NCBI GenBank assembly: GCA_036382855.1
Contig: DASVPO010000009.1
Coordinates: 197,182-261,181, forward strand
Direction: 5' to 3'
DNA: 64,000 nt
From: Pyrinomonadaceae bacterium
GTDB taxonomy: Bacteria; Acidobacteriota; Blastocatellia; Pyrinomonadales; Pyrinomonadaceae
Shown: positions 3,658-17,454 of the stretch, in pieces
Numbering within the stretch: position 1 is the first letter of the stretch
Layout: every line of letters starts with the position of its first letter
Translations under genes and position numbers: made by a program
Notes under the pieces: model-generated
Seen by the model: the letters and a program-made list of their open reading frames with translations, nothing else
Databases searched by the model: none
Told to the model about the DNA's origin: nothing

Positions 3658-3661
3658 CAGC

Positions 3662-3767
3662 AGTGACGAGTTATGAATGACGAATGACAAGTTAAAAGAA
3701 ATTCTTTGTTGCTCTCAGCTTGCTTCTTATTCCTGCTCGCCACTCGTCACTCATCACTTGTCACTCT
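3662..3767. repeat. degenerate heptamer-hairpin element (GTGACGAGT/ATGAATGACGAAT variant of family A) between kynU and kynA
   Basis: Left arm AGTGACGAGTTATGAATGACGAATGACAAGT and right arm ACTCGTCACTCATCACTTGTCACTC share GTGA(C/T)GA heptamer units in inverted orientation. Followed by TTTTATT and the kynA ATG. Confidence 0.5.
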
Positions 3768-3773
3768 TTTATT

Positions 3774-4634
3774 ATGGCTAAAGATTACGGCAGCCAATCG
3801 CCGCTCTCATACAATAAATACTTACGCGTCTCAGACCTCATCGGCTTGCAGGATTGTCTGTCCGACCCCGCGCATCACGACGAGTTGCTGTTTATCACCA
3901 TTCACCAGACTTACGAGTTGTGGTTTAAGCAGATACTACACGAGATTGACGCGGCGATTGTGCAGATGAACGAAGACCGCGCGGCAGCGGCAGCACGAGC
4001 GCTGCGCCGCATCGTCGAGATTGAAAAGGTGCTCGTCAACCAGATACACATTCTGGAAACGATGACGCCGATTAACTTTCTCGCCTTCCGCGACGAACTG
4101 AATCCGGCGAGCGGCTTCCAGAGCATGCAGTTTCGCGAGATAGAGTTTGCCTCCGGCTTGAAAGACCCTGAGATTCTGCGCAGCTTCGAGACGGACGAGT
4201 TTGCGCGCGAGCGGCTGCAAGCGCGCTTTCGTGGGCCAACTCTCGGAGACGCCTTCTACGCGTTGCTCCGCCGGCGCGGTCTGTCCGCCCCTGCGGATGA
4301 TGCGTCGCTCTCTGCCGAAGAATCCCGCAAGCTTTACGGCCAGCGCACGCGCGCCGTGCTCGAAATCATCACACACTTCGAGGAGCGCTACGAAGAGTTT
4401 CAACTGGCCGAAGGGCTGTTGGAACACGACGAATATTTCTCTCTCTGGCGCTCGCATCACGTACGCATGGTGGAGCGCATGGTTGGAGCCAAGCGCGGCA
4501 CGGGCGGCTCCGAAGGCATCGGCTACCTGAACACAACTCTCGATAAAAAGTTTTTCCCTGAGTTATGGGAAGCGCGCACCTATCTCGACACGAAACATGA
4601 CGGCGCGGGTTGTCCTTTCGCCGGTAAATCGTAA
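3774..4634 (+). CDS. kynA: tryptophan 2,3-dioxygenase
   Basis: YNKYLRVSDLIGLQDCLSDPAHHDELLFITIHQTYELWFKQILHE and MTPINFLAFRDELNPASGFQSMQFREIEF match bacterial TDO closely. The track ORF starts at 3720 but its upstream 18 codons translate the hairpin repeat. True ATG at 3774. Confidence 0.85.
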   Translation: MAKDYGSQSPLSYNKYLRVSDLIGLQDCLSDPAHHDELLFITIHQTYELWFKQILHEIDAAIVQMNEDRAAAAARALRRIVEIEKVLVNQIHILETMTPINFLAFRDELNPASGFQSMQFREIEFASGLKDPEILRSFETDEFARERLQARFRGPTLGDAFYALLRRRGLSAPADDASLSAEESRKLYGQRTRAVLEIITHFEERYEEFQLAEGLLEHDEYFSLWRSHHVRMVERMVGAKRGTGGSEGIGYLNTTLDKKFFPELWEARTYLDTKHDGAGCPFAGKS

Positions 4635-4692
4635 ACGGTCAACGGTTGATAGACGCTGCATTAGCTCGCCGGTCGTCAAGCCGATTCATTAA

Positions 4693-6237
4693 GTGATGAA
4701 GATAGAGTTTCCAGAAAAGTTCAACATGTCGGACTACTTCCTCTATCACAATCTGGAGGAAGGGCGCGAAGGCAAAGTCTGTCTCTACTTTGAGGATCAG
4801 ACCTACACGTATGGCGAGACGGCGCGGTTAGCTAACAGGACGGGCGCTGCCCTCCGTGAGCTTGGATTAAGGCAGGAAGAGCGCGTGTTGATTGTGTTGC
4901 CGGACTGCCCTGAGTTTGTCTGGACGTGGTTTGGTGCGAGCCGCATCGGCGCTGTCATTACGATGGTCAACCCGCTGCTGCCCGCCGCCGATTACAAATA
5001 TTATCTTGAATACACGCGCGCTCGCATCGCCGTCATACATGAATCGCTGCTCGCGACGTTTGCGGAAGCCGCTGCTGACGCGCGTCATCTACGGCAGGTC
5101 TTAGTCGTCGGCGATGAGCACGGCGATTTTCTCTCGTTTCAGAATGTTGTTTACGCGATGCCGGAGAACCTGACGCCCGCCGAGACGCATCGCGACGATA
5201 TAGCCATCTGGCTTTTCACGTCCGGCTCGACGGGCCATCCTAAAGGTGCTGTCCACCTGCAACACGATTTGCCGTATAACACGGAAGTCTTCGCCAAGCG
5301 CACCATCGGCGTGCGCGAAGACGACGTGACAGTCTCCGTGCCGAAACTCTTTTTCGGTTATGCGACCGGCACAAACCTGCTCTTTCCGTTTGCAGTTGGC
5401 GGTGCGACCGCTCTTTTCAGTGAGAGGTCAACGCCGGAAAAGTTGTTCGAGGTAATAGAACGTTTTCGCCCGACGATTTTGACGACCGTGCCGACGATGA
5501 TTAATGCGATGCTCAATGCTGAAGGCGGCAGACAAAGAGACTTGTCCAGCTTGCGCTTCTGCTATTCTGCGGGCGAGGCGCTGCCCGTGGAGCTTTATAA
5601 GCGATGGGTGGAGACGTTCGGAGTTGAAATCTATGACGGTATCGGTTCGGCAGAGATGTTTCACATCTACATCACGAATCGCCCTAATGATGTGAAGCCG
5701 GGAAGTCTTGGGCGCATCGTCGAAGGCTATGAAGCGCGAATCGTTGACGCCGAGGGCGCGCAAGTTAGCACGGGCGAGATGGGAACTTTGCGCATCAAGG
5801 GCGATTCGGCGGCGCTCTGCTACTGGAACGCGCACGAGAAATCGAAAGAGACTTTCGCGGGCGATTGGTGTACGACCGGCGACCAGTTTCACGTTGATGC
5901 CGACGGTTACTACTGGTATCACGGTCGCACCGACGACATGCTGAAAGTCTCAGGGGTTTTTGTTGCGCCCGCCGAAATCGAGAATTGCCTGCTGCAACAT
6001 GAAGCCGTGCTCGAATGTGCCATCATCGGCTTCGACGCGGGCGATGGCCTTGTCAAGCCCAAAGCCTTTGTCGTCGCGCGCGACACTCACGCGGCGGACG
6101 ACGCGCTGGCCGAACAACTCAAAGACTTCGTTAAATCACGACTCGCGCTCTACAAGTATCCACGCCAAATCGAGTTCGTAACGTCTCTACCGAAAAACGA
6201 CCGCGGCAAGATTGACCGCAAGTTATTAAAACAGTGA
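4693..6237 (+). CDS. aryl-CoA ligase of the benzoate/2-aminobenzoate-CoA ligase family (AMP-dependent synthetase)
   Basis: AMP-binding signature FTSGSTGHPKGAVH, YGxTE block and C-terminal GKIDRKLL. Overall pattern typical of benzoate-CoA ligase family. Confidence 0.8.
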   Translation: MMKIEFPEKFNMSDYFLYHNLEEGREGKVCLYFEDQTYTYGETARLANRTGAALRELGLRQEERVLIVLPDCPEFVWTWFGASRIGAVITMVNPLLPAADYKYYLEYTRARIAVIHESLLATFAEAAADARHLRQVLVVGDEHGDFLSFQNVVYAMPENLTPAETHRDDIAIWLFTSGSTGHPKGAVHLQHDLPYNTEVFAKRTIGVREDDVTVSVPKLFFGYATGTNLLFPFAVGGATALFSERSTPEKLFEVIERFRPTILTTVPTMINAMLNAEGGRQRDLSSLRFCYSAGEALPVELYKRWVETFGVEIYDGIGSAEMFHIYITNRPNDVKPGSLGRIVEGYEARIVDAEGAQVSTGEMGTLRIKGDSAALCYWNAHEKSKETFAGDWCTTGDQFHVDADGYYWYHGRTDDMLKVSGVFVAPAEIENCLLQHEAVLECAIIGFDAGDGLVKPKAFVVARDTHAADDALAEQLKDFVKSRLALYKYPRQIEFVTSLPKNDRGKIDRKLLKQ

Positions 6238-6314
6238 CAAGTGATGAGTAATGAGTGATGCGTTAAAAACCTTGCTTTCTTTTACTCATCACTCATTACT
6301 CATCACTCATCACT
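6233..6314. repeat. heptamer-tandem hairpin element, family A (GTGATGA/GTAATGA units)
   Basis: Left arm AGTGACAAGTGATGAGTAATGAGTGATG (contains the ligase TGA stop). Loop CGTTAAAAACCTTGCTTTCTTT. Right arm TACTCATCACTCATTACTCATCACTCATCACT, ending 6 nt before the thioesterase ATG. Confidence 0.85.
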
Positions 6315-6320
6315 TCTCTT

Positions 6321-6734
6321 ATGCCTTTCTCGACACGCATCACAGTCCGCTTCGGTGATACAGACCCGGCCGGACTCGTCTATTATCCGAACCTCTTTCA
6401 TTATCTTCACATTGCGATGGAAGAGTTTTTCGCGGCGCGCTGCGGTATTAGCTATCACAAGCTGATGGCGGATGAGCGCATCGGTTTTCCGACCGTCAAT
6501 GCGCAGGCGGAATTTTTGCTGCCGCTGGTTTATGGAGACGAGGCCGTGGTGGAGGTATTGGGTTCAAACGTTGGCCGCAGCTCTGCGACGTTTGATTACA
6601 GCATTCGTCGCGTCAGTGATAATGCGCTGTGTGTGCGTGCGCGCCTCGTGCACGTGGCGATGAATCTGGACGAACGCCGCGCCGTCGCAATCTCCGACCG
6701 CTATCGCCGCGCCTTCATGGAAAGCGCAAGCTAA
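6321..6734 (+). CDS. acyl-CoA thioesterase, hot-dog fold (4HBT/YbgC-like)
   Basis: RFGDTDPAGLVYYPNLFHYLHIAMEEFF is the typical 4HBT N-terminal block. 137 aa. Confidence 0.7.
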   Translation: MPFSTRITVRFGDTDPAGLVYYPNLFHYLHIAMEEFFAARCGISYHKLMADERIGFPTVNAQAEFLLPLVYGDEAVVEVLGSNVGRSSATFDYSIRRVSDNALCVRARLVHVAMNLDERRAVAISDRYRRAFMESAS

Positions 6735-6940
6735 AGAGCGTTCACTTCAAAACTAAAGACCAGCAAAGCTGCCGAGCCTTTCCCGTTCTCGTTTTGGAAA
6801 TCAAGGCGCAATCGGTATTTCTTAAGGTTACAACATCAGGAATTGGATAACGGCTACTATCGTTGTCGTCGCCGCCAGCAGCGCGCTCGGACAGAAGCAG
6901 CTTCCTAAAATTCCCTCCTGCTTGTGCAAACAACTTAATC

Positions 6941-6980
6941 GGCGCGGGTGAAAGTGCTCCTACCCGCGCCGACTTTTTTG
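6941..6980 (+). terminator. rho-independent terminator (GC stem plus T-tract)
   Basis: GGCGCGGGTgaaagtgctcctaCCCGCGCC followed by GACTTTTTTG. Lies between the plus-strand thioesterase region and the 3' end of the minus-strand gene 7006..9633. Confidence 0.6.
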
Positions 6981-7005
6981 TCTACAGATGTTAGAAAGAC
7001 GACAG

Positions 7006-9633
7006 CTAATCGCGCAGGCGTTGTGCGAGACGGCGGATGACGCTGGCGGCGATGGCCGGGTCGTTGTTGAGCGCCTGCCGGAAAGCGTTGCCGTTCAGAC
7101 GCAACGCGCGCACGCCGCTTGCTCCCGCAATCACGGTGGCGGAGCGCGGCGCAGGGTCAAGCACCGCCATCTCTCCTATGAAGCCGCCAGCTTTTTCTAC
7201 TGAAAGATGCTCCTGCTGCCCTTCTTCCTCACGAAAAATGTCTGCCTCGCCGCTCAACAGGATAAAGACTTCATCACCGAATTCGCCCTCGACGCACAGA
7301 GCCTTGCCCGGCGCATACTCGTCTTCGCGGCTCGCACGCGCCAACTCCGCCAGGCTCTCCGGCCCAAGCGTTGTGAAGATTGGAGCAGAACGGAGAGCAA
7401 TCATCTTCTCGACCGTGATGAGACCGGGATGAGAGCCTACCTCTTGTCCTTCGCGGCCCGCGCGTTCTTTCAAATGCAGCGCCGTCTCGCGCACGACCTC
7501 GTGCTCGTCTGCGCTCAGGCGCGAGAGCGTCTGTTCGTCAACCGCTCCGCGCTCGCTTAATGAATAGAGCGCGAGAGCGCGTATGTACGGGTCAACGCTC
7601 TGTGTGCGTGCGCGCAAGGTATCGGAGAGCGTCGGCCATGATGCTTCGATGGAAGCGGTCTCGCGCTGTGCGGCCAGTAGGCGCTCTGCTATTGACGGTG
7701 GAACAGCCTGACGTAATTGCTCAAGAACGGATTCACGCTGCGATTGCTCAGGGCTGTTTAGAGCCTCACGCATCAGGCGACTCGTTTCGTCGTCGGGCGT
7801 AAAGCTCAGGCCACGCATCAGGCGGCCGATGGCGCGCGAACGGCGACGCTGTAGAAGAACGATGAGGAAATCGTGCGTCGGCTTGTGTTCCATCTCAAGC
7901 GCCTGAATGGCCTGCGCAGCGCGTTCGATAGTTCTGATCTCTTCCATCAGCCGCCCGGCCATTCCCTGATCGCCGCCCAGCAGGTTATCCAAGACGGCCG
8001 CGTGCTCTTCCTTTGTCACGCGATACTCCGCGCGCAGATTCAAGATAAGGCTGTCGTCAACAGCGCCCTCGCCCGCCAGCGCGCGTTCAAGATAACGACC
8101 GAGCGCGCGCTCGTAGGTTTCGAGTTGCAGACGCTTCTCTGCGGAAATCTGCTTCGACGGGTCGGAGATGAGTGCGCGTTCTTCTTCGGCCAGCGAGGCC
8201 ATCACCTTCTCGTGGTCTGCCTTCTTAATCTGCAACTGGTTGCGCAAGTTTTCCAGCAGGTGCACTTCCTGCCGCGTGACGAAACCGTTAGCTAAAGTTT
8301 CGCGCACAGCGTCTTTGTAAACTTCGAGCACCTTTTCAGAGCCGCGAGCGCTCTCGCGCGTGCGAATCGTATGAATCAGGAAAGCCTCGCGCAAATCTTT
8401 GGGCGGTTGTATGTCCGTCCACTCCCAGCGCTTGATGATGTTGCGCGCCAGAGTCTCTTCGGCAAACGTTTTCTGGTTACGACGCAGGCGGCGCACAAGA
8501 AAGTATGTGGCTGTCAGGACGACGACCGCGAAGAAAACGTGAGGCACGACCCACGGGAAATATTTGTAGAGCGAGGGCGCGCCCGCAAACGTGTAAAAGA
8601 TTGTGAAGGCGGCAAAGGCTGCGAGCGAAAACGTTACGTGGCGAACGCGGCCCGGATCCGTTTCGGGGTCGCGACGACGCAGGAATTTGCCGACCGCCTT
8701 TTCCAGCAGCGAGAACAGCAGATAACTCACAAGCCCGCAGAGCGCGAGCGTCAAAATGGAAGCGACGGCGCGCGGCACGACGTGCAGAAAGAAGAAGCCT
8801 GCGGTCGCCGCATCGTGTCCCGGCAGAAACGCATGATGGATCATCATCGGCTCGTTGACCCAAGCGCCGCCGAAGTAGTAGGCCCATGTGCCGGATTGCA
8901 GGTAGTAGTAGAAGTAGAAGCCGAAGACGAGGCCGGGGAAAGCGAAGTAGGCAAACTTTTTCGGCTGCGATTCAATCTCTTTCCAGTAGCCGTTCTCCTC
9001 GTTGATGTCTGGGCAGAACTTTTTGCAGGCAGTGCATTTGGTGCATTGAGAGTTGGGCGTTTCCCTGATGCCGTGCGGCTCCGTGTAAATCTTTTCGATG
9101 AAGGAGACGGGGCAGATGTGGTTGCACCAGGTCTTGCCCGTATAGAACGCGCCGAAGATGAGCGCCGCCAGGCTGAGCAGGACGAAGAAGGCCGTAATCG
9201 CATGGCCGTCGCCGTTGGTGGCAACCAGCCGCAGCCAGAGCGAGACGAAGAAGATGGAAAGCGAAATGTAGTAATAGTTGGCTTCCATCCACGCGGAAGC
9301 CTTCTTCGTGCCGGGACGGCGCAGCCTTACGGGAATTTGCGCGAAGAAGGCGAGCGGGCAGATGCGACGCCAGCGATGATAGCCAACCAGCACGATAAAG
9401 AGCGGCAAGCTTGCGACTGCCATCGTCCACACGACGCGGCCCGCAAGGCTCTGCATCATGTGCGCGAAGACTGGAATCGCGATGAAGACGGCGAGCGCCA
9501 CCCACTTGAGCGGCTCAACCCAACGCTCGACAGCAGGCTCGGCGGCAGCTTTAGCGGACGTATGGGCAGAGCGTGCCGTCTGCTTTGTCGGAGCAGTCGG
9601 AGTTGCGGGCAATTTGGGTGATGCTACGGCCAT
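7006..9633 (-). CDS. multidomain membrane protein: NapH/CcoG-like polyferredoxin membrane domain, HEAT-like helical region, C-terminal cyclic-nucleotide-binding domain
   Basis: N-terminal TM region with RICP and CNHICP motifs and a CTKCTACKKFCP (CxxCxxCxxxCP) ferredoxin motif. C-terminal FGDEVFILLSGEADIF...GEMAVLDPAPRSATVIA is a cNMP-binding fold. Confidence 0.7.
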   Translation of the reverse strand: MAVASPKLPATPTAPTKQTARSAHTSAKAAAEPAVERWVEPLKWVALAVFIAIPVFAHMMQSLAGRVVWTMAVASLPLFIVLVGYHRWRRICPLAFFAQIPVRLRRPGTKKASAWMEANYYYISLSIFFVSLWLRLVATNGDGHAITAFFVLLSLAALIFGAFYTGKTWCNHICPVSFIEKIYTEPHGIRETPNSQCTKCTACKKFCPDINEENGYWKEIESQPKKFAYFAFPGLVFGFYFYYYLQSGTWAYYFGGAWVNEPMMIHHAFLPGHDAATAGFFFLHVVPRAVASILTLALCGLVSYLLFSLLEKAVGKFLRRRDPETDPGRVRHVTFSLAAFAAFTIFYTFAGAPSLYKYFPWVVPHVFFAVVVLTATYFLVRRLRRNQKTFAEETLARNIIKRWEWTDIQPPKDLREAFLIHTIRTRESARGSEKVLEVYKDAVRETLANGFVTRQEVHLLENLRNQLQIKKADHEKVMASLAEEERALISDPSKQISAEKRLQLETYERALGRYLERALAGEGAVDDSLILNLRAEYRVTKEEHAAVLDNLLGGDQGMAGRLMEEIRTIERAAQAIQALEMEHKPTHDFLIVLLQRRRSRAIGRLMRGLSFTPDDETSRLMREALNSPEQSQRESVLEQLRQAVPPSIAERLLAAQRETASIEASWPTLSDTLRARTQSVDPYIRALALYSLSERGAVDEQTLSRLSADEHEVVRETALHLKERAGREGQEVGSHPGLITVEKMIALRSAPIFTTLGPESLAELARASREDEYAPGKALCVEGEFGDEVFILLSGEADIFREEEGQQEHLSVEKAGGFIGEMAVLDPAPRSATVIAGASGVRALRLNGNAFRQALNNDPAIAASVIRRLAQRLRD

Positions 9634-9774
9634 TTGTGTAATTGCAGTGAATTTGAGAAATGAATTTACGAGTCGCGTTGAGTATCAATTCTGGTTTCGT
9701 CTTCAGGATTAAAGTCTAACGGTTTCTGACCTGAATTTGAAGTCCATAAGATGCACGCGAGGGTTTTAGGGTTT

Positions 9775-11877
9775 TCACCTGTTGAGACTCCGCCAGTCGC
9801 CAGCCGGAATAAAGCTGGCCCAGTAATACGGATGGCCGAGTTCGGGGTCTTTGAGCATGCGGAGTTGCACCTGCCGTAGCGCCTCGCTGCGGCCAGCGCC
9901 AGTTTGCAGCGCTTCGTAGTATTGAGTCATCAACTCGCGCGTGGCATCATCCGACACCTGCCACAAACTCATCACCTGACTTTCCGCACCAGCCAACACG
10001 AGAGCACGCCGCAGGCCGTAGACGCCATCGCCCTTGCGCGCTTCCCCGACGCCCGTCTCGCAGGCGGAAAGGACGACGAGCTTCGTGCCCCACAAATCGA
10101 GCGCGGAGGCTTCGAGCGCCGTCAGGATGCCGTCTTCGTCGCCGCCACCGCGTCCAGCGTTGGCTCCGGCCAGGGCGAGTCCCGAACGGAGGAGAGGATT
10201 TTCGCCGCGCAGCGTCTCGGACGTTGATTCCGTGATGCTGCCGAGAACGACGCCGCGACGTGCGGTTCGCTGCTCGGCGGGCTTGTCAAGGAAAAAACCG
10301 TGCGTTGCGATGTGCAGGATGCTCGGCCCGCTGGCGGCCTTGAGCGACGCTTCGGTCGCCTGCGGGCCGGTCAGCATGCGCGCCTGCGGCAAAATCGCGC
10401 CGAGCGCCTGAGCTTCGGCTGCTGTGCCCGGAAGCTGTTTGAAGTTGACGGAAGTGAAGTCAATCGAGCGACGATTGGCAGCGGCCTGAGCCGTTTTGAC
10501 GACAGGCGCAGTTTGTTTGTCATCAGGTTTCCCGAAAAGCGGATTAGCAATCACGAGCGGCGCTTGCCTGTTTTCCGTCTGCGCCTGCAACCGCAGCAGG
10601 TCGCGCCCGCTCGTCAGGTATGTGAACGAGTAGCGCTCGACAAGATAACGGTTCTGCTCGTCAACGAGTGCGCCAAACGGAATGAGATTCAACTCGCCGT
10701 CGGGCGAGAGGAAGACGACGCGCGTTTCACCTAGCAGCCGACGAATGGGACGCATCAAGCGTTCGTCCAGAGAGCGTGCCGTGTCCTTAACTTTCGTATT
10801 TTCGGAATCGCGCAGGGCCGTCCGTAATTTTGCGACTTCCGTATCAATCAGGCGCGTCTCGCCCAGATCAACCCAGCGCGGCTCGCCCTCGCGGCTCAAA
10901 ACGTAGGCGGCATAGTGCGTAGCGCCGAAGCGTTTGCCGGGCTGCGCTTTTCCGTCATATGGCCTGTACGTCATTATCTCGACGAGCACAGCGTTTGCCG
11001 GAATTGACTGCTGAACACGTTCGAGCGTCGCCGGCTGCGAAGCGGCGCGAAACTCCGCACTGCGGGCGCTGGCCGCCGCTTCCAATCGCCGCACCTCCGC
11101 TTCCAGCCGCGCGATCTCCTGTTGATACTGCGCCGCGTCCTTCGTCTTGTCCGGCCCTCTCAAAGAGAGATTGGCGAGCGCCGAGCGTGCACGCGACAAT
11201 TGCTCCAACAGCGCGCGGTCTTCAGCATTGAGACGATGGCGCAGAGATGCGACCTGATCGCTCATCGCGTCGAGCGCGCGACCCTTCCGTTGCAGGATAA
11301 CGCTCAGCGCCAGACGCGCAGCCTGCACGTTGTTCGGAACGGCGTTGAGATGAAGCGAGATTGTCGCGTCGGTTTCGCCAGCGAGCGTTGCGAGATAAAG
11401 TCGCTTTTGTTCTTCGGAGCCGGTCGTTAGTATGTAGTCCAGATTGTGCTCGCGTATCTCCGCGCTGCGAGCCAGCGTGGTCGTGGCCTGCGCCGTGTCA
11501 CCTTTGCTCCAGAGCATCGTCGCCAGATTGGCGAGCAGACTTGCGATTGTCGGATGCCGCGCTCCGAGCGCACGCTCCTCTATTTCCAACGCGCGACGAT
11601 ACAACGGTTCGGCGCTCGCATAATCACCCCTGGCTTCCATGATGGCGGCGAGATTGTTGAGAGCCATCGCGACCGAAGGATGATTGGCTCCGAGTTGTTG
11701 CTCGCGAATCTGAAGCGCACGCTTAACGAAGGTTTCGGCGCGTGCTTCATCATTCATGTCGTGATAGAGCACGGCCAGATTGTCGAGCGCCGTTGCCACG
11801 TCCAAGTGTTCCGCTCCCTGCGCCTTCTCGTAGATACTGAGCGCACGCTGCAACAGCTTCTCCGCCTCCGCGGCCAA
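9775..11877 (-). CDS. TPR-repeat plus CHAT (caspase-like) domain protein
   Basis: N-terminal TPR units (ALDNLAVLYHDMNDEARAE..., AMALNNLAAIMEARGDYASAE...). C-terminal CHAT His/Cys dyad context HIATHGFF and VVLSACETGVGE. Confidence 0.8.
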   Translation of the reverse strand: MAAEAEKLLQRALSIYEKAQGAEHLDVATALDNLAVLYHDMNDEARAETFVKRALQIREQQLGANHPSVAMALNNLAAIMEARGDYASAEPLYRRALEIEERALGARHPTIASLLANLATMLWSKGDTAQATTTLARSAEIREHNLDYILTTGSEEQKRLYLATLAGETDATISLHLNAVPNNVQAARLALSVILQRKGRALDAMSDQVASLRHRLNAEDRALLEQLSRARSALANLSLRGPDKTKDAAQYQQEIARLEAEVRRLEAAASARSAEFRAASQPATLERVQQSIPANAVLVEIMTYRPYDGKAQPGKRFGATHYAAYVLSREGEPRWVDLGETRLIDTEVAKLRTALRDSENTKVKDTARSLDERLMRPIRRLLGETRVVFLSPDGELNLIPFGALVDEQNRYLVERYSFTYLTSGRDLLRLQAQTENRQAPLVIANPLFGKPDDKQTAPVVKTAQAAANRRSIDFTSVNFKQLPGTAAEAQALGAILPQARMLTGPQATEASLKAASGPSILHIATHGFFLDKPAEQRTARRGVVLGSITESTSETLRGENPLLRSGLALAGANAGRGGGDEDGILTALEASALDLWGTKLVVLSACETGVGEARKGDGVYGLRRALVLAGAESQVMSLWQVSDDATRELMTQYYEALQTGAGRSEALRQVQLRMLKDPELGHPYYWASFIPAGDWRSLNR

Positions 11878-12020
11878 CGCGCCGCATGCTTACTACTTTC
11901 GCAATCAAACTTCAAGAGCACTCGGATTCCAGTATAGACGAGACGTGTGACGCCGCGCTTTTTTTGCTGAGCCTGCAAGACGACAAACGCGCTCTAATGA
12001 GCAATAACCTGACCTCGCAA

Positions 12021-12085
12021 AGAAAACATAACGGAAGGATAAAGAGCACGGAGGACGTTGCCGATTCTTCCGTGCTCTCTTTATC
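12021..12085 (-). terminator. rho-independent terminator downstream of gene 12100..13908
   Basis: Imperfect 17-19 bp stem GGATAAAGAGCACGGAGGA / CTTCCGTGCTCTCTTTATC. On the minus strand it is followed by the T-rich run TTATGTTTTCTTT. Confidence 0.5.
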
Positions 12086-12099
12086 AATGGCGGTCTGCG

Positions 12100-13908
12100 T
12101 TAGCTTCGCCCGAATCTGGTATCGAACGGCCAATCGTTAGCGAGCGGCGAGTGGATGTTGACGTTGATGTTCAGGTAATCGCGGAAGACGCCTTTGAGGT
12201 TGCCGACCTGCTCGTCTTCCTCGCGGCGTATGTACTCCGTGCGCCCGTCGTGCCTAGTGGGAAGGATGACGAAGAAGACGCGCGGAATCTCGCGTGTGTT
12301 GCCGACGGGCACGCCAGAGTTTGGCTCGCGCACGGGCTTTAGATAATCGCCCTCGTCGAAGTTGCGAACATGACATTGGATGCAGGTCATGCCGCGCTCT
12401 TCAAAAAGACGACGGCGCGGGTCGCGCAGAGAAGTCTCTGCCACCATATACTTCGTCTTGAAATCTCGCGAGAACGAAGCCGAATCAATGTTGCTGGCCG
12501 TAACCGTGCCGTCGTGCTCATCTGGGATGGCGATGTTGCCGTGGTCATCTGCATCAACGAGTTTGTCCCAACCGGCGACGAATTGATTGCTCTGCTTATC
12601 GAAGCGCGGCGCGGGCACTGGCTTGTAAGCTTTGCCGTCCGGCGTCGGCTTGATGCTCGTCGCAAAGCCGTCAATGAATGGACTGACGAAGGCCAGAACC
12701 TTCCGTCCTTCGCGCTCTACGGGTGCGACTTTGAGCGCGCCGAGCGCCCAACCGTCGCCGCTCATGTAGTTGCCCTTCGCGTCATACTTATTGTCGCCGC
12801 CGAGACGCGCGTTGTGCGGAATGGCTGCGAGCGTGGCCTGCATGTTCGGGTCGGAAGGGTCTTTGTAGGTCAGCACCCTTGTCATGTAATCGGCGAGGGC
12901 CTGCCCGTAAGCCTTCTTGTCTTTGACGACGAAGGGCTTCAGATTCTCACCGTCGAAGAAGGCTTCGTGGAAGAGGCGCGCAAACGTCTGGTTGTTCTTC
13001 TGCCTTTGCTCTTCAGGACGCCCCGCATCTTTGCCGCGCACGATACGCATGCGCGGCATCAGGTAAACGGGTTCAGCCGCTGCGATGTTGAAGTAGACGA
13101 GACGCAGCTCAAAGGTCTTCTTATTGAGACGCGGGCGCACGCCGATGAGCCGCCAGTTTTCAGCCTTAAACTGCGGATTGAATTTCGGGCTGTCGGGGTC
13201 AATCTCTTCGTTGCGGTGAAGCGCGGCCAGATTCTTCAAAGCATCGCGGAAGAGCATTTCACCGTTTGTCGGCTGAATGTCCTTGCCCTGATTGGCGGGT
13301 TTTCCGGCTTCTATCTCAGCGATGCGCTGGAAGAGGGCCACGAGCGGCCAGCGTGCGTTAGCCGCCGCCAAACGCTCCGGGTCTGTGATGCTGACCAGCG
13401 TTTCGACTTCGATTGGCGCAGGCTCAAGAAAATTTGTCGAGACGGCGCGCGGCTCGACCTTGACGTTGAAGGTTTTGATTATCTCGCCGCGCCTCTCGTT
13501 CGTCTCGCGCGCAAACTCCGTAATGCGGACGACGAACTGGCCCTTGCGGTCGTCCGTTGGTTGCGGCGTCCAATCAACGGTCAGTGTTCGCTGGTTGAAC
13601 TTGGCGGAAGCAGGCTTTTGCACCAACTCAATACGCACATCGTCGCTCTCTTCGTCAATCGCGCCGAGGCCGAAGACGATGCGCTGGCCCAGTCCCACAC
13701 TCTTGAAGAGCACGGGAGCCAATTCCGGCGGATGATTCGCTTGCCCTGAGTCTGCGTCAGAATGGAGTTTATCGCTGACGCTGACAGCGCTCGCCGTCGG
13801 ATGTGAAACAAGGGCGGCGCTCGCCAGCGCGCAAAAGAGAAGAAGAGAGACAAGCTTGAGCTTATCCGCGTTGGAAAATCGCGAGGGGGAACGGCGTTTC
13901 GTCATCAT
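12100..13908 (-). CDS. secreted protein with C-terminal CxxCH (c-type haem-binding) motif
   Basis: Signal peptide MMTKRRSPSRFSNADKLKLVSLLLFCALASAALVSHPTASA. Single CIQCH motif near the C-terminus. The track ORF extends to 14328, but that would overlap the upstream regulator. The ATG at 13908 gives a signal-peptide start. Confidence 0.6.
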   Translation of the reverse strand: MMTKRRSPSRFSNADKLKLVSLLLFCALASAALVSHPTASAVSVSDKLHSDADSGQANHPPELAPVLFKSVGLGQRIVFGLGAIDEESDDVRIELVQKPASAKFNQRTLTVDWTPQPTDDRKGQFVVRITEFARETNERRGEIIKTFNVKVEPRAVSTNFLEPAPIEVETLVSITDPERLAAANARWPLVALFQRIAEIEAGKPANQGKDIQPTNGEMLFRDALKNLAALHRNEEIDPDSPKFNPQFKAENWRLIGVRPRLNKKTFELRLVYFNIAAAEPVYLMPRMRIVRGKDAGRPEEQRQKNNQTFARLFHEAFFDGENLKPFVVKDKKAYGQALADYMTRVLTYKDPSDPNMQATLAAIPHNARLGGDNKYDAKGNYMSGDGWALGALKVAPVEREGRKVLAFVSPFIDGFATSIKPTPDGKAYKPVPAPRFDKQSNQFVAGWDKLVDADDHGNIAIPDEHDGTVTASNIDSASFSRDFKTKYMVAETSLRDPRRRLFEERGMTCIQCHVRNFDEGDYLKPVREPNSGVPVGNTREIPRVFFVILPTRHDGRTEYIRREEDEQVGNLKGVFRDYLNINVNIHSPLANDWPFDTRFGRS

Positions 13909-13946
13909 GTTTAGCTTGAAATTCGTGAAAAGTTTACGGCCATATA

Positions 13947-13990: not shown

Positions 13991-15406
13991 TCAGTTCCGG
14001 CGTTCCAGATTGTAATCACGCAGGCGGCGATAGAGCGTAGAGGGTGAGATGCCCAGGAGTTCGGCGGTCTTGCCGCGATGCCAGTTGGTCTGTTCGAGCG
14101 CTGCGAGAATTTGCTGGCGTTCGACTTCACGGAGCGAAGCGGGCGCGGCTTGCGCGAGCGCTCCCGGTGTGGAATCAGCGACGCCCGCGCTGCCCTGTGC
14201 GGCGAAGGAGACGGGCGCTGGCTGCATTGTACGGCGTGCGACTTCGGGCGGCAGTTCAGCGAGCGTAATCTGACCTTCGTTTGCCAGCAGCACGGCGCGT
14301 TCCAGACAGTTGCGTAGCTGGCGAACATTGCCGGGCCAACTGTAGTCGCGTAGCGCCTGCAAGGCTTCGGGCGTGAGTTGCGGAGGATTCGGGCCGCCGA
14401 GTTGCTTGAGCAGATGTTGGGCCAGCGGCTCTATGTCTTCGGGGCGCTCGCGCAGCGGCAGCAATGAGATCTGGAAACCGTTGATGCGGTAGAGCAGGTC
14501 TGCGCGAAATTGTCCGCTCGTCACGACCTCATCCGGGTTGCGATTGGTGGCGGCGATGATACGCACGTTAACTTCAACTTTGCGCACGCCGCCGACGCGA
14601 TAAAACGTACGCGTCTCAATCGCACGCAGCAGCTTCGACTGCAACTGCGTCGGCAGTTCCGTTATCTCGTCGAGAAAGAGCGTGCCGCCGTCGGCCAGTT
14701 CAATCAATCCGAGCTTTCGCGCTTTCGCGCCGGAAAACGCGCCCGCCTCATAACCGAAAAGCTCTGATTCGAGCAGGGATTCCTGAAAGGCTGCGCAGTT
14801 GAGGTCAATGAAAGAAGCGTCTGCGCGATTCGAGAGGCGATGAACCGCATGTGCGATTAATTCCTTGCCTGTGCCGGATTCGCCCGTGATGAGAACGGAT
14901 GCATCGGAAGGCGCGACGCGCTCGACGAGGCGTATGGCCTCGCTCATAGCATCCGAGACGGAGATGATTTCGGGCATCTGCGACTGCCGTGCAAGTTGCT
15001 GCCTGAGCCGCAGGTTGTCAACGCGCAGCCGTCGCTTCTCAGCAGCCTGCCGGACGAGCGCGTCGAGTTCCGTGATGCGGTAAGGCTTCGAGAGGTAATC
15101 GTAAGCGCCGAGCTTCATGGCCTCTATGGCCGTCTCGACCGTGGCATGGCCGGTCAGCATAATCACCTCGGGCGGGTTGGGCCGCTCGTGAACGCGGCGA
15201 AGGAGTTCCATTCCGTCCATGCGCGGCATGTTGATGTCGCAGAGCAGCACATCAACGTTTCCTTCTTCGAGACGACGCAGCGCTTCCTCGCCGTCCGGGG
15301 CGACCTGCACTCTGTAGCCTAAGCGTTGCAGTTCCTTCTGGATTACCAGACGCAGGTTTGCTTCATCTTCAGCGACGAGCAGTCGCGCGCCGTTCGTTTC
15401 AGTCAA
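13991..15406 (-). CDS. sigma-54-dependent two-component response regulator (NtrC family)
   Basis: REC domain (LLVAEDEANLRLV...VLLCDINMPRMDGMEL), AAA+ sigma-54 activator domain (GESGTGKELIAHAVH, GAFSGA) and C-terminal HTH (TAELLGISPSTLYRRL). Confidence 0.9.
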   Translation of the reverse strand: MTETNGARLLVAEDEANLRLVIQKELQRLGYRVQVAPDGEEALRRLEEGNVDVLLCDINMPRMDGMELLRRVHERPNPPEVIMLTGHATVETAIEAMKLGAYDYLSKPYRITELDALVRQAAEKRRLRVDNLRLRQQLARQSQMPEIISVSDAMSEAIRLVERVAPSDASVLITGESGTGKELIAHAVHRLSNRADASFIDLNCAAFQESLLESELFGYEAGAFSGAKARKLGLIELADGGTLFLDEITELPTQLQSKLLRAIETRTFYRVGGVRKVEVNVRIIAATNRNPDEVVTSGQFRADLLYRINGFQISLLPLRERPEDIEPLAQHLLKQLGGPNPPQLTPEALQALRDYSWPGNVRQLRNCLERAVLLANEGQITLAELPPEVARRTMQPAPVSFAAQGSAGVADSTPGALAQAAPASLREVERQQILAALEQTNWHRGKTAELLGISPSTLYRRLRDYNLERRN

Positions 15407-17454
15407 GTCGTTCGTTCTCCATCCGATGGAATAGCCGCGGGCAGCGAAATCGTGAAGGTCGTGCCCTTCCCGATTACGGATTGAACCTCAAGGCGTCCGC
15501 CGTGCTCCGTTACAATACCATAACAGACGGCGAGGCCAAGCCCCGTGCCGCGCCCGACCTCTTTCGTGGTGAAAAACGGGTCAAAAATTTTCGTCAGATT
15601 TTCGGGCGCGATGCCGACGCCCGTATCGCTGATTTCTATTAGAACGTGATCGCCTTCGTTGCGCGCGCAGAGCGTCAGGCGTCCGCCATCGGGCATCGCG
15701 TCAATGGCGTTGGTTGAAAGCGCTATCACGGCCTGCTGTAATTGTCCCTCGTCGCCGGAAACTGTTGTCACATCCTTTGAGACTTCCGTCGTAATCTCTA
15801 CCTTAGCGCCGCGCTTTTGATGGGCCACTAACCGCGCCGCAGACTCTATCACGCCTGCAACATCAACCGGCGCGTGCTCGCCCACGCGCGCCCGGCTGAA
15901 ATCCAGAAGACCGTTCGTAATCGTCTTACAACGGAAAGCTTCGCTGCGAATCAGGCCCAGGTATTCCCTTAAATCTTCGGCTTCGGGCGAACTATCGAAC
16001 GCGCCCTCTCTGGCGCGCGATTCGAGGGCTTCGGCGCAGGCCGAAATCGTCGCCAACGGATTATTAATCTCGTGGACGACGCCCGCCGCCAAGCGACCCA
16101 CGGCCGCCAGTTTTTCGGCACGCGCGACGGCGCGATTGGCTTCGACGCGCGCCGTGATGTCTTCGCCGACCGTGATAACGTGTGACACCTCGCCGCCCTC
16201 AGCGCGCATCGGAACTTTGCTGACGAGCCAGTGATGAGTCGCGCCGCTTGCGTCGGTCGTCTCCTGCTCGATGCGTTCTATCGAGCCGCTTTCGAAGGCG
16301 CGCGCAAACTCTCTCTCCAGAATCTCGCGCCGCTGCCTCGTGAGCACCTGAAAGATATTGCGCCCGAGCACAGCCCCGCGCGGAATACCCTGCCCGCCCA
16401 ACTCGCGATTACGATTCCAAGCGACGATGCGATAATCACGGTCAACCGCATAGAGCGAGACGGGAAGACTATCAATAATCGCCTCCGTTAAGCGTCGCTG
16501 CGCTTCGACCTCGGCCGTTCGCCGCTCGACCTCTCTGGCAAGAGAGGCTGAGGATTCGCGTGCCGCTTCGTAGAGCAGCGAGATTTGTGCGGAGAGCGCG
16601 GCCTGCTGCGCAGCCGCATCAACCAGACGGCTCTCCGTTTCGCCGCAATCTTCGCGGCGGTCGAAAGCTGCCACGAGCGCGCCCTGCACGCGCCCGCCAA
16701 ACCTGAGCGGCGCGACATACTCAACCACGTGCGCCTCGTCCTTCAACAAAAACTTCGCAGGCTCATCAACAAGCTGCGAACCGGCAGCGCCCGGCGATGC
16801 CAGCCACTCCTTTAAGCGTTCGACCTGCATGAGGCCAGCGCCCTCTACGCTGCCCTCGCGGTCAAAGACACGAATCGCCAGTCCTTTATCGTTTTGACTG
16901 ACGGCGGCTGCGCAAAGAGCAGCGCCCGTGCCCTCGTAGGTCGCGCCCGCCACGCGCCTCACTACCTGATCAGGCTCCAGCGCGCGCAGCAGCCCGCGCC
17001 CTAAATCCGACAAAAATCTGAGTTCACGGTTGCTGCCGATTAAGGCCCACTCGCGCTGCGCACTTCCAAGGCGCGCACCGACACGCGAGATTAACTCACG
17101 CGCGCTCGAAGGCTTGACGATGTAATCGTCCGCCCCTGCGGCAAACGCCTCGACCTTCCGATTCTCGTCGTCGCTCGCGGAAAAGATGATGACGGGCAGT
17201 TGCCTCGTCGCTGCCTGCGCACGCAGCAGGCGACAGAGCGCGAGGCCGTCAATGCCGGGCATCGTGATGTCCAGAATGATTAAATCGCAGCCTTCTTTGT
17301 GCAGCAGCCTGAGCGCGCTCGGCGCATCAGAGGCAGCAATCACACGATTGCCCGCGCTCTCGAAGATACGACGCAAGGAACGCCGCGTGCCCGGTTCATC
17401 GTCAACGACGAGCAGCGTCAGACCTGTCGAATTAACATCGGATTGAGCGGGCAT
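15403..17454 (-). CDS. hybrid sensor histidine kinase (N-terminal REC, GAF-like, PAS, HisKA, HATPase)
   Basis: [17 protein letters not shown]...[44 protein letters not shown]-box [12 protein letters not shown]. ATPase [32 protein letters not shown]. Overlaps the regulator gene by 4 bp. Confidence 0.85.

What the first reader, a model, noticed from the sequence alone, without database searches (positions are those of the whole stretch)
7006..9633. Fusion of a NapH/CcoG-like membrane polyferredoxin to a HEAT-like region and a cNMP-binding domain
The N-terminus has a TM domain with RICP and CNHICP motifs plus a CxxCxxCxxxCP ferredoxin motif, typical of redox-active membrane ferredoxins. The C-terminus is a CAP-family cyclic-nucleotide-binding fold, with ~400 aa of helical repeats between. 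A redox or Fe-S membrane module regulated by a cyclic nucleotide is an uncommon architecture. It lies at the downstream end of a co-directional signalling block.
Basis: partly seen in the sequence, partly recalled or inferred. Interest (0 to 1): 0.65.

Follow-up and report, generated by a model that had tools for sequence, protein, structure and literature searches.

The report
Cyclic-nucleotide-linked membrane iron-sulfur protein family
This gene encodes a membrane iron-sulfur protein with a built-in cyclic-nucleotide sensor; it belongs to a widespread, unstudied family that sits next to genes for exported haem proteins, which suggests a second-messenger-controlled electron supply to the periplasm.

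Summary

It has four parts:
- A NapH-like membrane core with seven invariant cysteines (WRRICP, WCNHICP, CTKCTACKKFCP).
- Four further TM helices.
- A 360-aa all-helical middle region.

It is not a one-off fusion. The three-part architecture persists down to ~25% identity in Acidobacteriota, Myxococcota, Gemmatimonadota and Cyanobacteria, with FHA-bearing relatives lacking a detectable cNMP domain on Rhizobiaceae plasmids. No paper describing it was found.

It fails the NapH, CcoG and NosR membership tests: one Fe-S motif instead of two, and the first CX3CP has lost a cysteine.

The informative neighbour is not the TPR-CHAT or sigma-54 genes. It is a 602-aa exported orphan protein with an invariant CxQCH motif (12100-13908). 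That gene lies directly upstream in Pyrinomonadaceae and Myxococcota. Here a lineage-specific TPR-CHAT insertion separates the two.

Other lineages carry a di-haem oxidoreductase, cytochrome c peroxidase or secreted globin there. Some add a downstream FAD/NAD(P)H/2Fe-2S reductase.

Best reading, inferred: a cNMP-modulated membrane redox module serving periplasmic haem proteins.

The parts
7006..9633 (-). Whole gene: 875-aa membrane Fe-S / helical / cNMP-binding protein. The stop codon is 7006-7008.
   Evidence: ORF list and translation. An identical protein, P0001, is in the public collection, annotated only as 'cyclic nucleotide-binding domain-containing protein [Pyrinomonadaceae]'.
8968..9519 (-). 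NapH-like core, residues 39-222: four TM helices plus a cytoplasmic Cys-rich loop.
   Evidence: NCBIfam NapH/MauN hit on residues 89-209, E 1.2e-6, below cutoff. E. coli NapH aligns in register to the family profile, E 1.3e-9. Helices come from the model. Positive-inside counts place both Cys loops in the cytoplasm.
9355..9372 (-). Degenerate first CX3CP motif, W88-R-R-I-C92-P. The first Cys is replaced; R89, C92 and P93 are invariant.
9109..9129 (-). Intact second CX3CP motif, W169-C170-N-H-I-C174-P175 (all invariant). This is the Fer4_5 hit.
9010..9045 (-). Single ferredoxin-type motif, C197-x2-C200-x2-C203-x3-C207-P. It is followed by invariant D209, E213 and W217.
   Evidence: NapH's second such motif has no counterpart here.
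8482..8967 (-). Four additional TM helices (residues 223-384) with conserved periplasm-facing loops at 248-287 and 350-361. These helices are absent from NapH.
   Evidence: Model, conservation, topology.
7399..8481 (-). All-helical cytoplasmic middle region, residues 385-745. It has no Pfam, NCBIfam or PDB sequence match.
7957..8337 (-). Tandem ~58-residue three-helix repeat (433-490 and 501-559) with the signature Y..LR..EH.
   Evidence: hhalign of the two halves: probability 97.7%, E 1.3e-12.
7453..7656 (-). HEAT-like stretch, residues 660-727. Scores are sub-threshold only.
   Evidence: HEAT_2 E 0.55 here. Homologues reach at most 26.9 bits against a cutoff of 27.7 at the equivalent position.
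7009..7398 (-). Cyclic-nucleotide-binding domain, residues 746-875.
7126..7188 (-). Phosphate-binding cassette, GGFIGEMAVLDPAPRSATVIA. Conservation across 77 relatives: G820 75/77, E821 75/77, R830 69/77.
12100..13908 (-). Conserved partner gene: a 602-aa exported orphan protein with a signal peptide, an Ig/cadherin-like domain, a large core without a PDB fold match, and an invariant CxQCH motif.
12370..12384 (-). CIQCH, a c-type haem attachment motif in the partner.
9775..11877 (-). TPR-CHAT gene inserted between partner and target. It is not part of the conserved module.
   Evidence: CHAT E 6.8e-87. Present between the pair only here and in L004 among the loci compared.
13991..17454 (-). REC-PAS histidine kinase (15403-17454) and sigma-54-type response regulator (13991-15406). 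They are syntenic with the pair within Pyrinomonadaceae only.

Best explanation
The gene encodes the membrane subunit of a periplasm-directed redox system.

**Shown**
- It is an 8-TM protein with both ends in the cytoplasm.
- Its first four helices and cytoplasmic Cys motifs are homologous to the NapH / NosR / RdhC quinol-dehydrogenase-type membrane module.
- It carries seven invariant cysteines: C92, C170, C174 and one CxxCxxCxxxCP motif.
- It ends in a cNMP-binding domain whose ribose-phosphate contacts (Gly-Glu ... Arg-Ser/Thr-Ala) are conserved across the family.
- Family members sit next to genes for exported haem proteins of at least four unrelated families, and in some lineages also next to an FAD/NAD(P)H/2Fe-2S reductase.

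**Inferred**
- The cysteines hold at least one [4Fe-4S] cluster at the cytoplasmic membrane face.
- Reducing equivalents come from a cytoplasmic reductase and/or the quinol pool.
- They pass through the membrane module to the exported haem partner. Here that partner is the 602-aa CxQCH protein at 12100-13908, probably a peroxidase-like or small-molecule-reducing enzyme.
- Binding of cAMP or cGMP to the C-terminal domain repositions the helical middle region and switches electron flow on or off. This would resemble how C-terminal cNMP domains gate channels and exchangers.

The route through the bilayer is unknown. Candidates are a bound quinone or an aromatic relay; no conserved haem-b ligand pair is seen. 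The direction of regulation is also unknown.
For: **Domain assignment and fold**
- Pfam and NCBIfam assignments.
- In-register alignment to E. coli NapH, E 1.3e-9.
- High-confidence model, pLDDT 89.9.
- Phosphate-binding cassette conserved: 75/77, 75/77 and 69/77.
- Seven Cys invariant in 77 relatives down to 24% identity.
- Positive-inside topology puts the Fe-S loop and the cNMP domain in the cytoplasm.
- Periplasm-facing loop residues G248, Y253, G256, W258, G279, P287, G351, P353 and P360 are nearly invariant.

**Architecture**
- Retained in 71 full-length cluster representatives.

**Exported haem-protein neighbours**
- Orphan CxQCH protein directly upstream in Pyrinomonadaceae and, at 31-37% identity, in Myxococcota, often with 1-2 nt gaps or overlap.
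- DHOR di-haem oxidoreductase next to the gene in Gemmatimonadota, Vicinamibacterales and Polarisedimenticolaceae, and in L108.
- Secreted Bac_globin in Terriglobia.
- CCP_MauG cytochrome c peroxidase in Agrobacterium fabrum and Rhizobium etli plasmids.
- Genes with CxxCH are directly adjacent in 37 of 278 cases, against 9 of 889 elsewhere in the same loci. Odds ratio 15, p 1.7e-16.

**Cytoplasmic donor**
- An FAD_binding_6 / NAD_binding_1 / Fer2 reductase lies immediately downstream in 17-18 cyanobacterial-type loci and in both Rhizobiaceae plasmids.

**Possible cNMP source**
- In three loci a class III cyclase with a haem sensor domain lies divergently adjacent.

**Published background**
- The 4-TM + CX3CP module of NapH, NosR and RdhC is held to link the quinol pool to periplasmic reductases (PMC5928378).
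Against: - No cofactor, ligand or activity has been measured; everything functional is inference from sequence and gene context.
- Seven cysteines do not make two standard [4Fe-4S] clusters, and the role of CX3CP motifs is unresolved even in NapH and NosR.
- No conserved pair of TM histidines or other obvious transmembrane cofactor site was found. Only H332 is nearly invariant.
- Many family members have no haem-protein neighbour. This includes the 54-57% identity Terriglobia/Pyrinomonadaceae clade, most ~940-aa cyanobacterial members, and Synechocystis PCC 6714.
- The loci are phylogenetically clustered, so the enrichment p-value overstates independence.
- In this window the pair is split by a TPR-CHAT gene, so co-transcription here is unproven.
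- The partner's CxxCH region is modelled with low confidence, and haem attachment is assumed.
- No cytoplasmic reductase gene is adjacent in this window.
Confidence: 0.5

Rival explanations
1. Membrane-anchored signalling receptor or scaffold. The Fe-S site senses redox state, O2 or NO, and the cNMP domain senses a second messenger. The output is not electron transfer. Instead, partner proteins such as regulators or kinases are bound or released by the helical repeat / HEAT-like region.
For: - A large (360-aa) conserved helical region with tandem repeats and HEAT-like segments is typical of protein-protein interaction modules.
- An FHA phospho-threonine-binding domain is inserted in the cyanobacterial and Rhizobiaceae clades.
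- Two-component systems are frequent neighbours: HK + NtrC in Pyrinomonadaceae, and DAHL-HK + RR in Rhizobiaceae.
- Many members have no redox neighbour at all.
Against: - There is no recognisable output domain.
- The most conserved parts are the membrane core, the Cys motifs and the periplasm-facing loops, not the helical region: conservation is 0.85-0.91 against 0.65-0.80.
- Recurrent operonic pairing, with overlapping stop and start codons, to exported haem proteins and to an NAD(P)H reductase fits an enzyme complex better.
Confidence: 0.2
2. CcoG-like metal reductase or maturation factor. The cytoplasmic Fe-S/Cys site reduces a metal ion or cofactor (Cu2+, Fe3+, haem), or supplies reducing power needed to mature the exported haem protein. 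It would not feed that protein's catalytic cycle.
For: - The module is shared with CcoG-type proteins, which carry Fer4_5-type motifs and act as a cytoplasmic-face cupric reductase for cbb3 oxidase assembly (literature list; my own knowledge of Marckmann et al. 2019).
- All invariant Cys lie on the cytoplasmic side.
- The partners are cofactor-containing exported proteins.
Against: - There is no CcoG/FixG HMM hit and no FixG_C domain.
- No copper or haem transporter, or Ccm genes, are conserved nearby.
- One partner class, the globins, does not need covalent haem attachment.
- A dedicated NAD(P)H reductase partner and second-messenger control are unusual for a maturation factor.
Confidence: 0.15
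3. Anti-phage defence effector of the Pycsar type: a cNMP-binding domain coupled to a membrane-disrupting TM module, triggered by a cyclic pyrimidine. The neighbouring TPR-CHAT protease would belong to the same defence island.
For: - PADLOC matches to the PycTIR and effector cNMP domains, E 5e-17 on residues 762-874.
- A CHAT protease gene is adjacent.
Against: - The matches cover only the generic cNMP fold; nothing matches the membrane part, the CHAT gene or the partner.
- There is no adjacent cyclase in this window.
- The gene sits in stable chromosomal synteny (HK - NtrC - partner - target - thioesterase - kynurenine genes) across Pyrinomonadaceae at 62-93% identity. Defence islands do not behave this way.
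- The CHAT gene is a recent insertion found in 2 of the loci compared.
- Invariant Fe-S cysteines are not a feature of PycTM.
Confidence: 0.02

Closest known systems
NapH / MauN family (TIGR02163): membrane ferredoxin-type quinol dehydrogenase subunit of periplasmic nitrate reductase
   Same: - Four-TM core with N-in topology.
- A cytoplasmic WCxxxCP motif after TM4, followed by a CxxCxxCxxxCP motif. These align in register with E. coli NapH, E 1.3e-9.
- Works with periplasmic redox proteins (literature).
   Different: - Scores 28 bits against a cutoff of 213.
- The first CX3CP has lost its first Cys.
- Only one ferredoxin motif instead of two.
- Four extra TM helices, a 360-aa helical region and a cNMP domain are added.
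- There is no napG or napA. The partner is a haem protein, not an Fe-S protein.
NosR / NirI and RdhC (PceC) membrane proteins
   Same: They share the '4 TM + two CX3CP' module thought to connect the quinol pool to a periplasmic terminal reductase (PMC5928378).
   Different: - There is no periplasmic FMN-binding domain (no such Pfam hit).
- The cytoplasmic extension here is a regulatory cNMP domain.
- The partner genes are different.
CcoG / FixG / RdxA cupric reductase
   Same: A membrane protein with Fer4_5-type Cys motifs and cytoplasmic Fe-S, serving the biogenesis of an extracytoplasmic haem-copper enzyme (and my own knowledge).
   Different: - No CcoG model hit and no FixG_C Ig-like periplasmic domain.
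- One Fe-S motif rather than two.
- No ccoGHIS context.
Membrane proteins gated by a C-terminal cNMP-binding domain (MloK1 / SthK / HCN / CNG channels, SLC9C1 exchanger)
   Same: - A membrane module, then a helical linker, then a C-terminal cNMP domain with a canonical phosphate-binding cassette.
- These are the top structural matches for the C-terminal domain.
- They are the functional analogy for 'ligand binding in the cytoplasm controls a membrane activity'.
   Different: - The membrane module here is an Fe-S redox-type fold, not a channel or transporter. TM-score to these proteins is only 0.12-0.14, which is the cNMP domain alone.
- The linker is far longer.
Bacterial di-haem cytochrome c peroxidase electron-supply chains (CCP with cytochrome c or cupredoxin donors; quinol peroxidase YhjA)
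   Same: A periplasmic haem peroxidase needs a dedicated electron donor. In A. fabrum and R. etli a CCP_MauG gene lies beside a family member and an NAD(P)H reductase.
   Different: - No known CCP system uses a NapH-like Fe-S membrane protein as donor, or one regulated by cNMP or FHA domains (my own knowledge; no paper found).
- In this window the haem partner is an orphan family, not CCP.

Membership tests
NapH/MauN family (TIGR02163; NapH PRK09477) | HMM score at or above the curated cutoff | tested here: not met
   28.2 bits against 213.05 for TIGR02163, and 24.6 against 234 for PRK09477.
NapH/MauN family | Four TM helices with cytoplasmic N- and C-termini | tested here: inconclusive
   A homologous 4-TM core is present and N-in. 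However, the protein has eight TM helices in all.
NapH/MauN family | Two cytoplasmic CX3CP motifs | tested here: not met
   The second motif, C170-x3-C174-P, is intact. The first is W88-R89-x-x-C92-P, with NapH C105 aligned to invariant R89.
NapH/MauN family | Two C-terminal CxxCxxCxxxC(P) 4Fe-4S motifs | tested here: not met
   Only C197...C207P is present. NapH's C260...C270 has no counterpart, and TM5 follows instead.
NapH/MauN family | Operon with napG/napA (or mauM) | tested here: not met
   No such genes among the neighbours scanned in the window (1-30 kb) or among the conserved neighbours of the 160 related loci.
Pfam Fer4_5 (PF12801) | HMM score at or above the gathering threshold | tested here: met
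   25.2 bits against 22, residues 147-177.
Iron-sulfur protein (any) | Bound Fe-S cluster | not testable with these tools
   Only the invariant Cys pattern is seen. Confirmation needs Fe/S analysis and EPR.
Cyclic nucleotide-binding domain (PF00027; CAP/PKA fold) | HMM score at or above the gathering threshold | tested here: met
   61.5 bits against 27.5, E 7.6e-17.
Cyclic nucleotide-binding domain | Eight-stranded beta-roll plus C-helix fold | tested here: met
Cyclic nucleotide-binding domain | Phosphate-binding cassette residues (G-E ... R-[ST]-A) | tested here: met
   G820-E821 ... R830-S831-A832. Conserved in 75, 75 and 69 of 77 relatives.
Cyclic nucleotide-binding domain | Actual binding of cAMP or cGMP, and which nucleotide | not testable with these tools
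   Needs ITC or a similar assay on residues 746-875.
CcoG/FixG/RdxA | CcoG model hit, two 4Fe-4S motifs and a FixG_C periplasmic domain | tested here: not met
   No CcoG family appears in the NCBIfam list at E up to 1, and Pfam gives no FixG_C hit. There is one Fe-S motif.
NosR/RdhC | Periplasmic covalent-FMN-binding domain | tested here: not met
   No FMN_bind hit. The periplasmic loops are at most 40 residues long.
HEAT repeat proteins (PF13646 / PF02985) | HMM score at or above the gathering threshold | tested here: not met
   11 bits against 27.7 here. Homologues reach 22-26.9 bits at the same relative position but never pass.
Pycsar effector (PycTM / PycTIR) | cNMP domain plus effector module, encoded next to a PycC cyclase | tested here: not met
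   Only the cNMP domain matches. No cyclase was found among the scanned neighbours, and the chromosomal synteny is stable.
c-type cytochrome (partner protein, 12100-13908) | CxxCH motif in a Sec-exported protein | tested here: met
   N-terminal signal sequence and CIQCH. C519, C522 and H523 are invariant in 30 sequences including Myxococcota.
c-type cytochrome (partner protein) | Covalently bound haem | not testable with these tools
   Needs haem staining or mass spectrometry.

The most novel reading that the evidence does not exclude
This family would be the first example of a respiratory-type membrane electron-transfer module switched directly by a cyclic-nucleotide second messenger, and in some clades also by phospho-threonine through FHA domains. 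It would deliver cytoplasmic or quinol reducing power across the membrane to exported haem enzymes. Its conserved 602-aa CxQCH partner would be a new class of periplasmic haem enzyme with a fold not seen in the PDB.
Probability: 0.3. Interest if true: 0.8.

Novelty: new variant of a known kind. Interest (0 to 1): 0.62.

Why it matters
Cyclic nucleotides in bacteria are known mainly to control transcription factors, channels and a few enzymes. Direct allosteric control of a membrane Fe-S electron-transfer protein has not been described in the literature searched.

If the model is right, it does four things:
- It adds a new output class to cAMP/cGMP signalling.
- It explains how several orphan or poorly understood periplasmic haem proteins get their electrons. 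These are DHOR, secreted truncated globins, some cytochrome c peroxidases, and the orphan CxQCH protein.
- It gives a function to a family present in hundreds of soil and aquatic species, including Acidobacteriota, Myxococcota, Gemmatimonadota, Cyanobacteria and rhizobial plasmids.
- It makes the question testable, because members exist in cultured, genetically tractable strains: Synechocystis sp. PCC 6714, Agrobacterium fabrum Kin001 and Rhizobium etli 8C-3.

Tried and rejected
1. **Sigma-54 control of the gene.** No -24/-12 element lies upstream of the target or the partner. Window-wide matches to TGGCAC-N5-TTGCW number 24, below the chance expectation of 33.7.
2. **Promoter and terminator scan of 6700-14100.** Not above the shuffled background.
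4. **The afdb50 fold library** was not available.
5. **Partner protein.**
   - No Pfam, NCBIfam or PDB sequence hit.
   - Profile-profile comparison with the DHOR neighbours gave 3% probability, so the partner classes are unrelated.
6. **Structure prediction of the partner with Myxococcota homologues.** A second protein search with the mixed alignment returned only Pyrinomonadaceae. The partner model therefore rests on a shallow alignment and has low confidence around CxxCH.
7. **Defence-system reading (Pycsar, CHAT).** Rejected.
8. **Literature searches.** Searches for polyferredoxin + cyclic nucleotide-binding, Fer4_5 + cNMP_binding, and 4Fe-4S + cNMP domain + transmembrane found no description of this architecture.
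9. **Taxon names for distant representatives.** Cluster look-up was mostly uninformative.
Full report
**What is in the sequence**

Window 7006-9633 holds one ATG-initiated ORF of 875 codons on the minus strand. The plus-strand frame is broken by stops.

The quoted motifs are all present and were checked by translation:
- WRRICP at 9355-9372
- WCNHICP at 9109-9129
- CTKCTACKKFCP at 9010-9045

An identical protein is already in public collections. It is annotated only as 'cyclic nucleotide-binding domain-containing protein [Pyrinomonadaceae bacterium]'.

**Anatomy**

- Pfam gives cNMP_binding (residues 772-858, E 7.6e-17, 61.5 bits against a cutoff of 27.5) and Fer4_5 (147-177, 25.2 against 22). 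HEAT_2 is not significant (E 0.55).
- NCBIfam gives only a weak NapH/MauN match: residues 89-209, 28 bits against a cutoff of 213.
- An AlphaFold model built on 77 relatives is confident (pLDDT 89.9, pTM 0.80). It shows:
  - a disordered N-terminus (1-38);
  - eight TM-length helices between 39 and 384;
  - a short non-helical Cys-rich loop (185-211);
  - an all-helical stretch (387-727);
  - a beta-roll with C-helix (769-874).
- Lys+Arg counts are 5, 8, 7, 5 and 3 in the loops predicted to be cytoplasmic, and 0, 0, 0 and 1 in those predicted to be periplasmic. The protein is therefore N-in and C-in, with the Cys motifs and the cNMP domain in the cytoplasm.
- Its phosphate-binding cassette, GGFIGEMAVLDPAPRSATV, keeps the Gly-Glu and Arg-Ser-Ala contacts. 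These are conserved in 75, 75 and 69 of 77 relatives.
- The middle region contains a tandem ~58-residue repeat, 433-490 and 501-559 (hhalign probability 97.7%, E 1.3e-12).
- It also contains a HEAT-like segment that stays below the Pfam cutoff in every member tested.
- The middle region has no PDB sequence relative.

**Relation to NapH**

E. coli NapH aligns in register to the family profile, E 1.3e-9:
- NapH's second CX3CP (C197-C201-P) matches C170-C174-P.
- NapH's first ferredoxin motif (C226...C236-P) matches C197...C207-P.
- NapH's first CX3CP (C105-C109-P) aligns to R89...C92-P, so the first cysteine has been replaced by an invariant arginine.
- NapH's second ferredoxin motif has no counterpart. 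A fifth TM helix follows instead.

The protein is thus NapH-like in its core. It fails the defining features of NapH (two CX3CP, two Fe-S motifs, HMM cutoff, nap context). It also fails those of CcoG (no model hit, no FixG_C) and NosR/RdhC (no FMN domain). 'Polyferredoxin' is a misnomer.

Seven cysteines (C92, C170, C174, C197, C200, C203, C207), together with R89, D209, E213 and W217, are invariant down to 24% identity. Which cluster or clusters they bind cannot be decided here.

**It is a family, not a chance fusion**

- A full HMMER scan of 1.84 billion cluster representatives with residues 1-740 found 933 relatives, 270 of them at E<1e-30.
- Local HMMs for the three modules show membrane + middle + cNMP in 71 full-length representatives of 740-1135 aa. 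Most of the remainder are shorter than 740 aa and appear truncated.
The 80 best are mostly from Acidobacteriota (Pyrinomonadaceae, Terriglobia, Vicinamibacteria, Thermoanaerobaculia), Myxococcota (Kofleriaceae, Haliangiales, Polyangia) and Gemmatimonadota. Single MAGs are labelled Planctomycetota, Nitrospinota, Armatimonadota and Patescibacteria.
- A metagenome scan seeded with a divergent ~1,000-1,100-aa clade added at least 484 more. That clade is cyanobacterial where taxonomy is known.
- That clade carries an FHA domain inserted before the cNMP domain.
- Members occur in cultured strains:
  - Synechocystis sp. PCC 6714 plasmid pSYLB (WP_028946478.1)
  - Leptolyngbya sp. BL0902
  - Kovacikia minuta
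  - Agrobacterium fabrum Kin001 pAt3 (WP_121652064.1)
  - Rhizobium etli 8C-3 (WP_196776341.1)
- The A. fabrum protein tested carries an FHA domain but gave no cNMP_binding hit at E up to 0.001. Its R. etli counterpart is likewise annotated only as an FHA domain-containing protein.
- Several Rhizobium plasmids carry the membrane module alone.

**Gene context: the main new result**

In this window the genes from 19672 down to 7006 all run on the minus strand:
- HD-GYP/GAF/GGDEF protein
- REC-PAS histidine kinase
- sigma-54-type response regulator
- an ORF with no Pfam hit
- TPR-CHAT
- the target

Comparison with 82 related loci shows which of these matter.

*The TPR-CHAT gene* lies between the no-hit ORF and the target only here and in L004. 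It is an insertion.

*The kinase and regulator pair* is syntenic only within Pyrinomonadaceae.

*The no-hit ORF* is the conserved neighbour.
- Its true start is the ATG at 13908, giving 602 aa.
- It lies immediately upstream of the target in 25 Pyrinomonadaceae loci.
- At 31-37% identity it also does so in about 19 Myxococcota loci, frequently with 1-2 nt gaps or overlapping stop and start codons.
- Its CxQCH motif is invariant across both phyla.
- It has no Pfam, NCBIfam or PDB sequence relative.

*Where this partner is absent*, the neighbouring gene is often another exported haem protein:
- DHOR di-haem oxidoreductase in Gemmatimonadota, Vicinamibacterales and Polarisedimenticolaceae, and in L108.
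- Signal-peptide-bearing truncated globins in Terriglobia.
- CCP_MauG cytochrome c peroxidase in the two Rhizobiaceae plasmids.

The orphan partner and DHOR are unrelated (hhalign 3%), so these look like independent associations.

*Enrichment.* Genes with CxxCH are directly adjacent in 37 of 278 cases, against 9 of 889 elsewhere in the same loci. The odds ratio is 15 and p is 1.7e-16. The loci are not phylogenetically independent and the gene calls were crude.

*Cytoplasmic side.*
- An FHA-FAD_binding_6-NAD_binding_1-Fer2 reductase gene follows the target directly in 17-18 cyanobacterial-type loci.
- An FAD/NAD/Fer2 reductase, with no FHA hit in the one tested, follows it in both Rhizobiaceae plasmids.
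- L108 and the Rhizobiaceae plasmids have all three together: haem peroxidase-type gene, target and reductase.

*Possible cNMP source.* Three loci carry a divergently adjacent class III cyclase with a Tll0287-like haem sensor domain.

**Most likely mechanism**

*Shown:*
- A NapH-type membrane core with invariant cytoplasmic cysteines.
- A ligand-competent-looking cNMP domain.
- Near-invariant periplasm-facing loops.
- Recurrent operonic linkage to exported haem proteins and to an NAD(P)H reductase.

*Inferred:*
- The protein holds at least one Fe-S cluster at the inner face of the membrane.
- It takes electrons from a cytoplasmic reductase and/or quinol.
- It hands them through its membrane module to the exported haem partner.
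- cNMP binding modulates this step through the long helical region.
- FHA-mediated phospho-threonine recognition does the same in some clades.

This extends the role proposed for the shared module of NapH, NosR and RdhC (PMC5928378).

*Unknown:*
- The cluster type.
- The path across the bilayer. Only one TM histidine, H332, is nearly invariant.
- The nucleotide bound.
- The sign of regulation.
- The partner's chemistry.

I put this at about 0.5.

**Rival explanations**

- A membrane-tethered redox and cNMP receptor acting through protein-protein contacts (0.2).
- A CcoG-like reductase or maturation factor (0.15).
- A Pycsar-type defence effector (0.02). This is rejected because only the generic cNMP fold matches, no cyclase was found among the scanned neighbours, and the locus is in stable chromosomal synteny.

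**Novelty**

Both end modules are known kinds, so this is a new variant rather than a new category. However:
- The combination is conserved and widespread.
- It is uncharacterised in the literature searched.
- It comes with an orphan haem-motif partner and a coherent set of redox neighbours.
- It is testable in cultured strains.

**Limitations**

- All function is inferred.
- Many members lack a redox neighbour.
- The partner model is only moderate (pLDDT 73.5) and poor around CxxCH.
- The membrane and middle modules could not be fold-searched separately.
- The afdb50 library was unavailable.

Noticed in passing
window 9775-11877 (-): A 700-aa TPR-CHAT protease gene sits between the conserved partner gene and the target. 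Among the related loci compared, this happens only here and in L004; L005, at 85% identity, has an 82-nt gap instead. It looks like a recent insertion into an operon-like pair. A CHAT gene also lies near a cyanobacterial family member (L083), probably by coincidence.
   Followed up: partly
window 12100-14328 (-): The mechanical 742-aa ORF overlaps the 3' end of the sigma-54 regulator gene (13991-15406). The real gene starts at ATG 13908 (MMTKRR..., 602 aa), matching the lengths and N-termini of homologues.
   Followed up: yes
window 13951-13978 (-): A 6-bp inverted repeat, ATCAGG-N16-CCTGAT, lies in the 82-nt gap between the regulator's stop codon and the partner's start codon. It could be an operator or a hairpin. 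No sigma-54 -24/-12 element is present there.
   Followed up: no
window 790-6734: A cluster lies convergent with the target: tryptophan 2,3-dioxygenase (3720-4634), kynureninase-like aminotransferase (2440-3657), AMP-dependent ligase (4693-6237), 4HBT thioesterase (6321-6734) and an OYE-family flavin oxidoreductase (790-2334). It is syntenic across Pyrinomonadaceae loci. It is a kynurenine/aromatic-acid pathway with no evident link to the target.
   Followed up: partly
window 17687-19672 (-): A 661-aa HD-GYP + GAF + GGDEF protein sits at the head of the co-directional block. It is a c-di-GMP turnover enzyme, conserved in a few Pyrinomonadaceae loci (L012, L017, L031, L054).
   Followed up: no
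L106, L109 (3176-4696 -), L113: A class III adenylate/guanylate cyclase with an extracytoplasmic Tll0287-like CxxCH haem sensor domain is encoded divergently next to cyanobacterial-type family members. It is a candidate local source of the cyclic nucleotide.
   Followed up: partly
L036, L038 (2796-3347), L042, L044 (7491-8015): Truncated (Bac_globin) haemoglobins with clear N-terminal signal peptides lie next to the family member in Terriglobia MAGs. Three are upstream on the same strand (L036, L038, L044); the L042 globin is on the opposite strand. Exported globins are unusual, and it is an open question how they acquire haem and a reductant.
   Followed up: partly
L174 (A. fabrum pAt3 45688-48870) and L177 (R. 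etli pRsp8C3a): On conjugative rhizobial plasmids a family member with an FHA domain sits in a compact cassette: response regulator - DAHL histidine kinase - cytochrome c peroxidase, divergent from the FHA/Fe-S membrane protein - FAD/NAD/2Fe-2S oxidoreductase. No cNMP_binding hit was found at E up to 0.001 in the A. fabrum protein tested. This is a ready-made genetic test system.
   Followed up: partly
L175 (R. leguminosarum pRltTA1A 314244-315548) and ~25 Rhizobium plasmids: A 434-aa '4Fe-4S binding protein' consists of the membrane module alone, with no helical region and no cNMP domain. It lies next to a MerR regulator. This shows the 8-TM Fe-S module can function as a stand-alone unit.
   Followed up: no
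L084 / L085 (5110-5997): In the ~810-aa clade (P0165) a rhodanese gene ends 4 nt before the family member's start codon. This is a different, sulfur-related partner that the haem-partner model does not explain.
   Followed up: no
L139, L141 (7832-8203) and 9 other loci: A prokaryotic diacylglycerol kinase gene follows the ~940-aa cyanobacterial members at a gap of about 15 nt. The reason is unknown.
   Followed up: no
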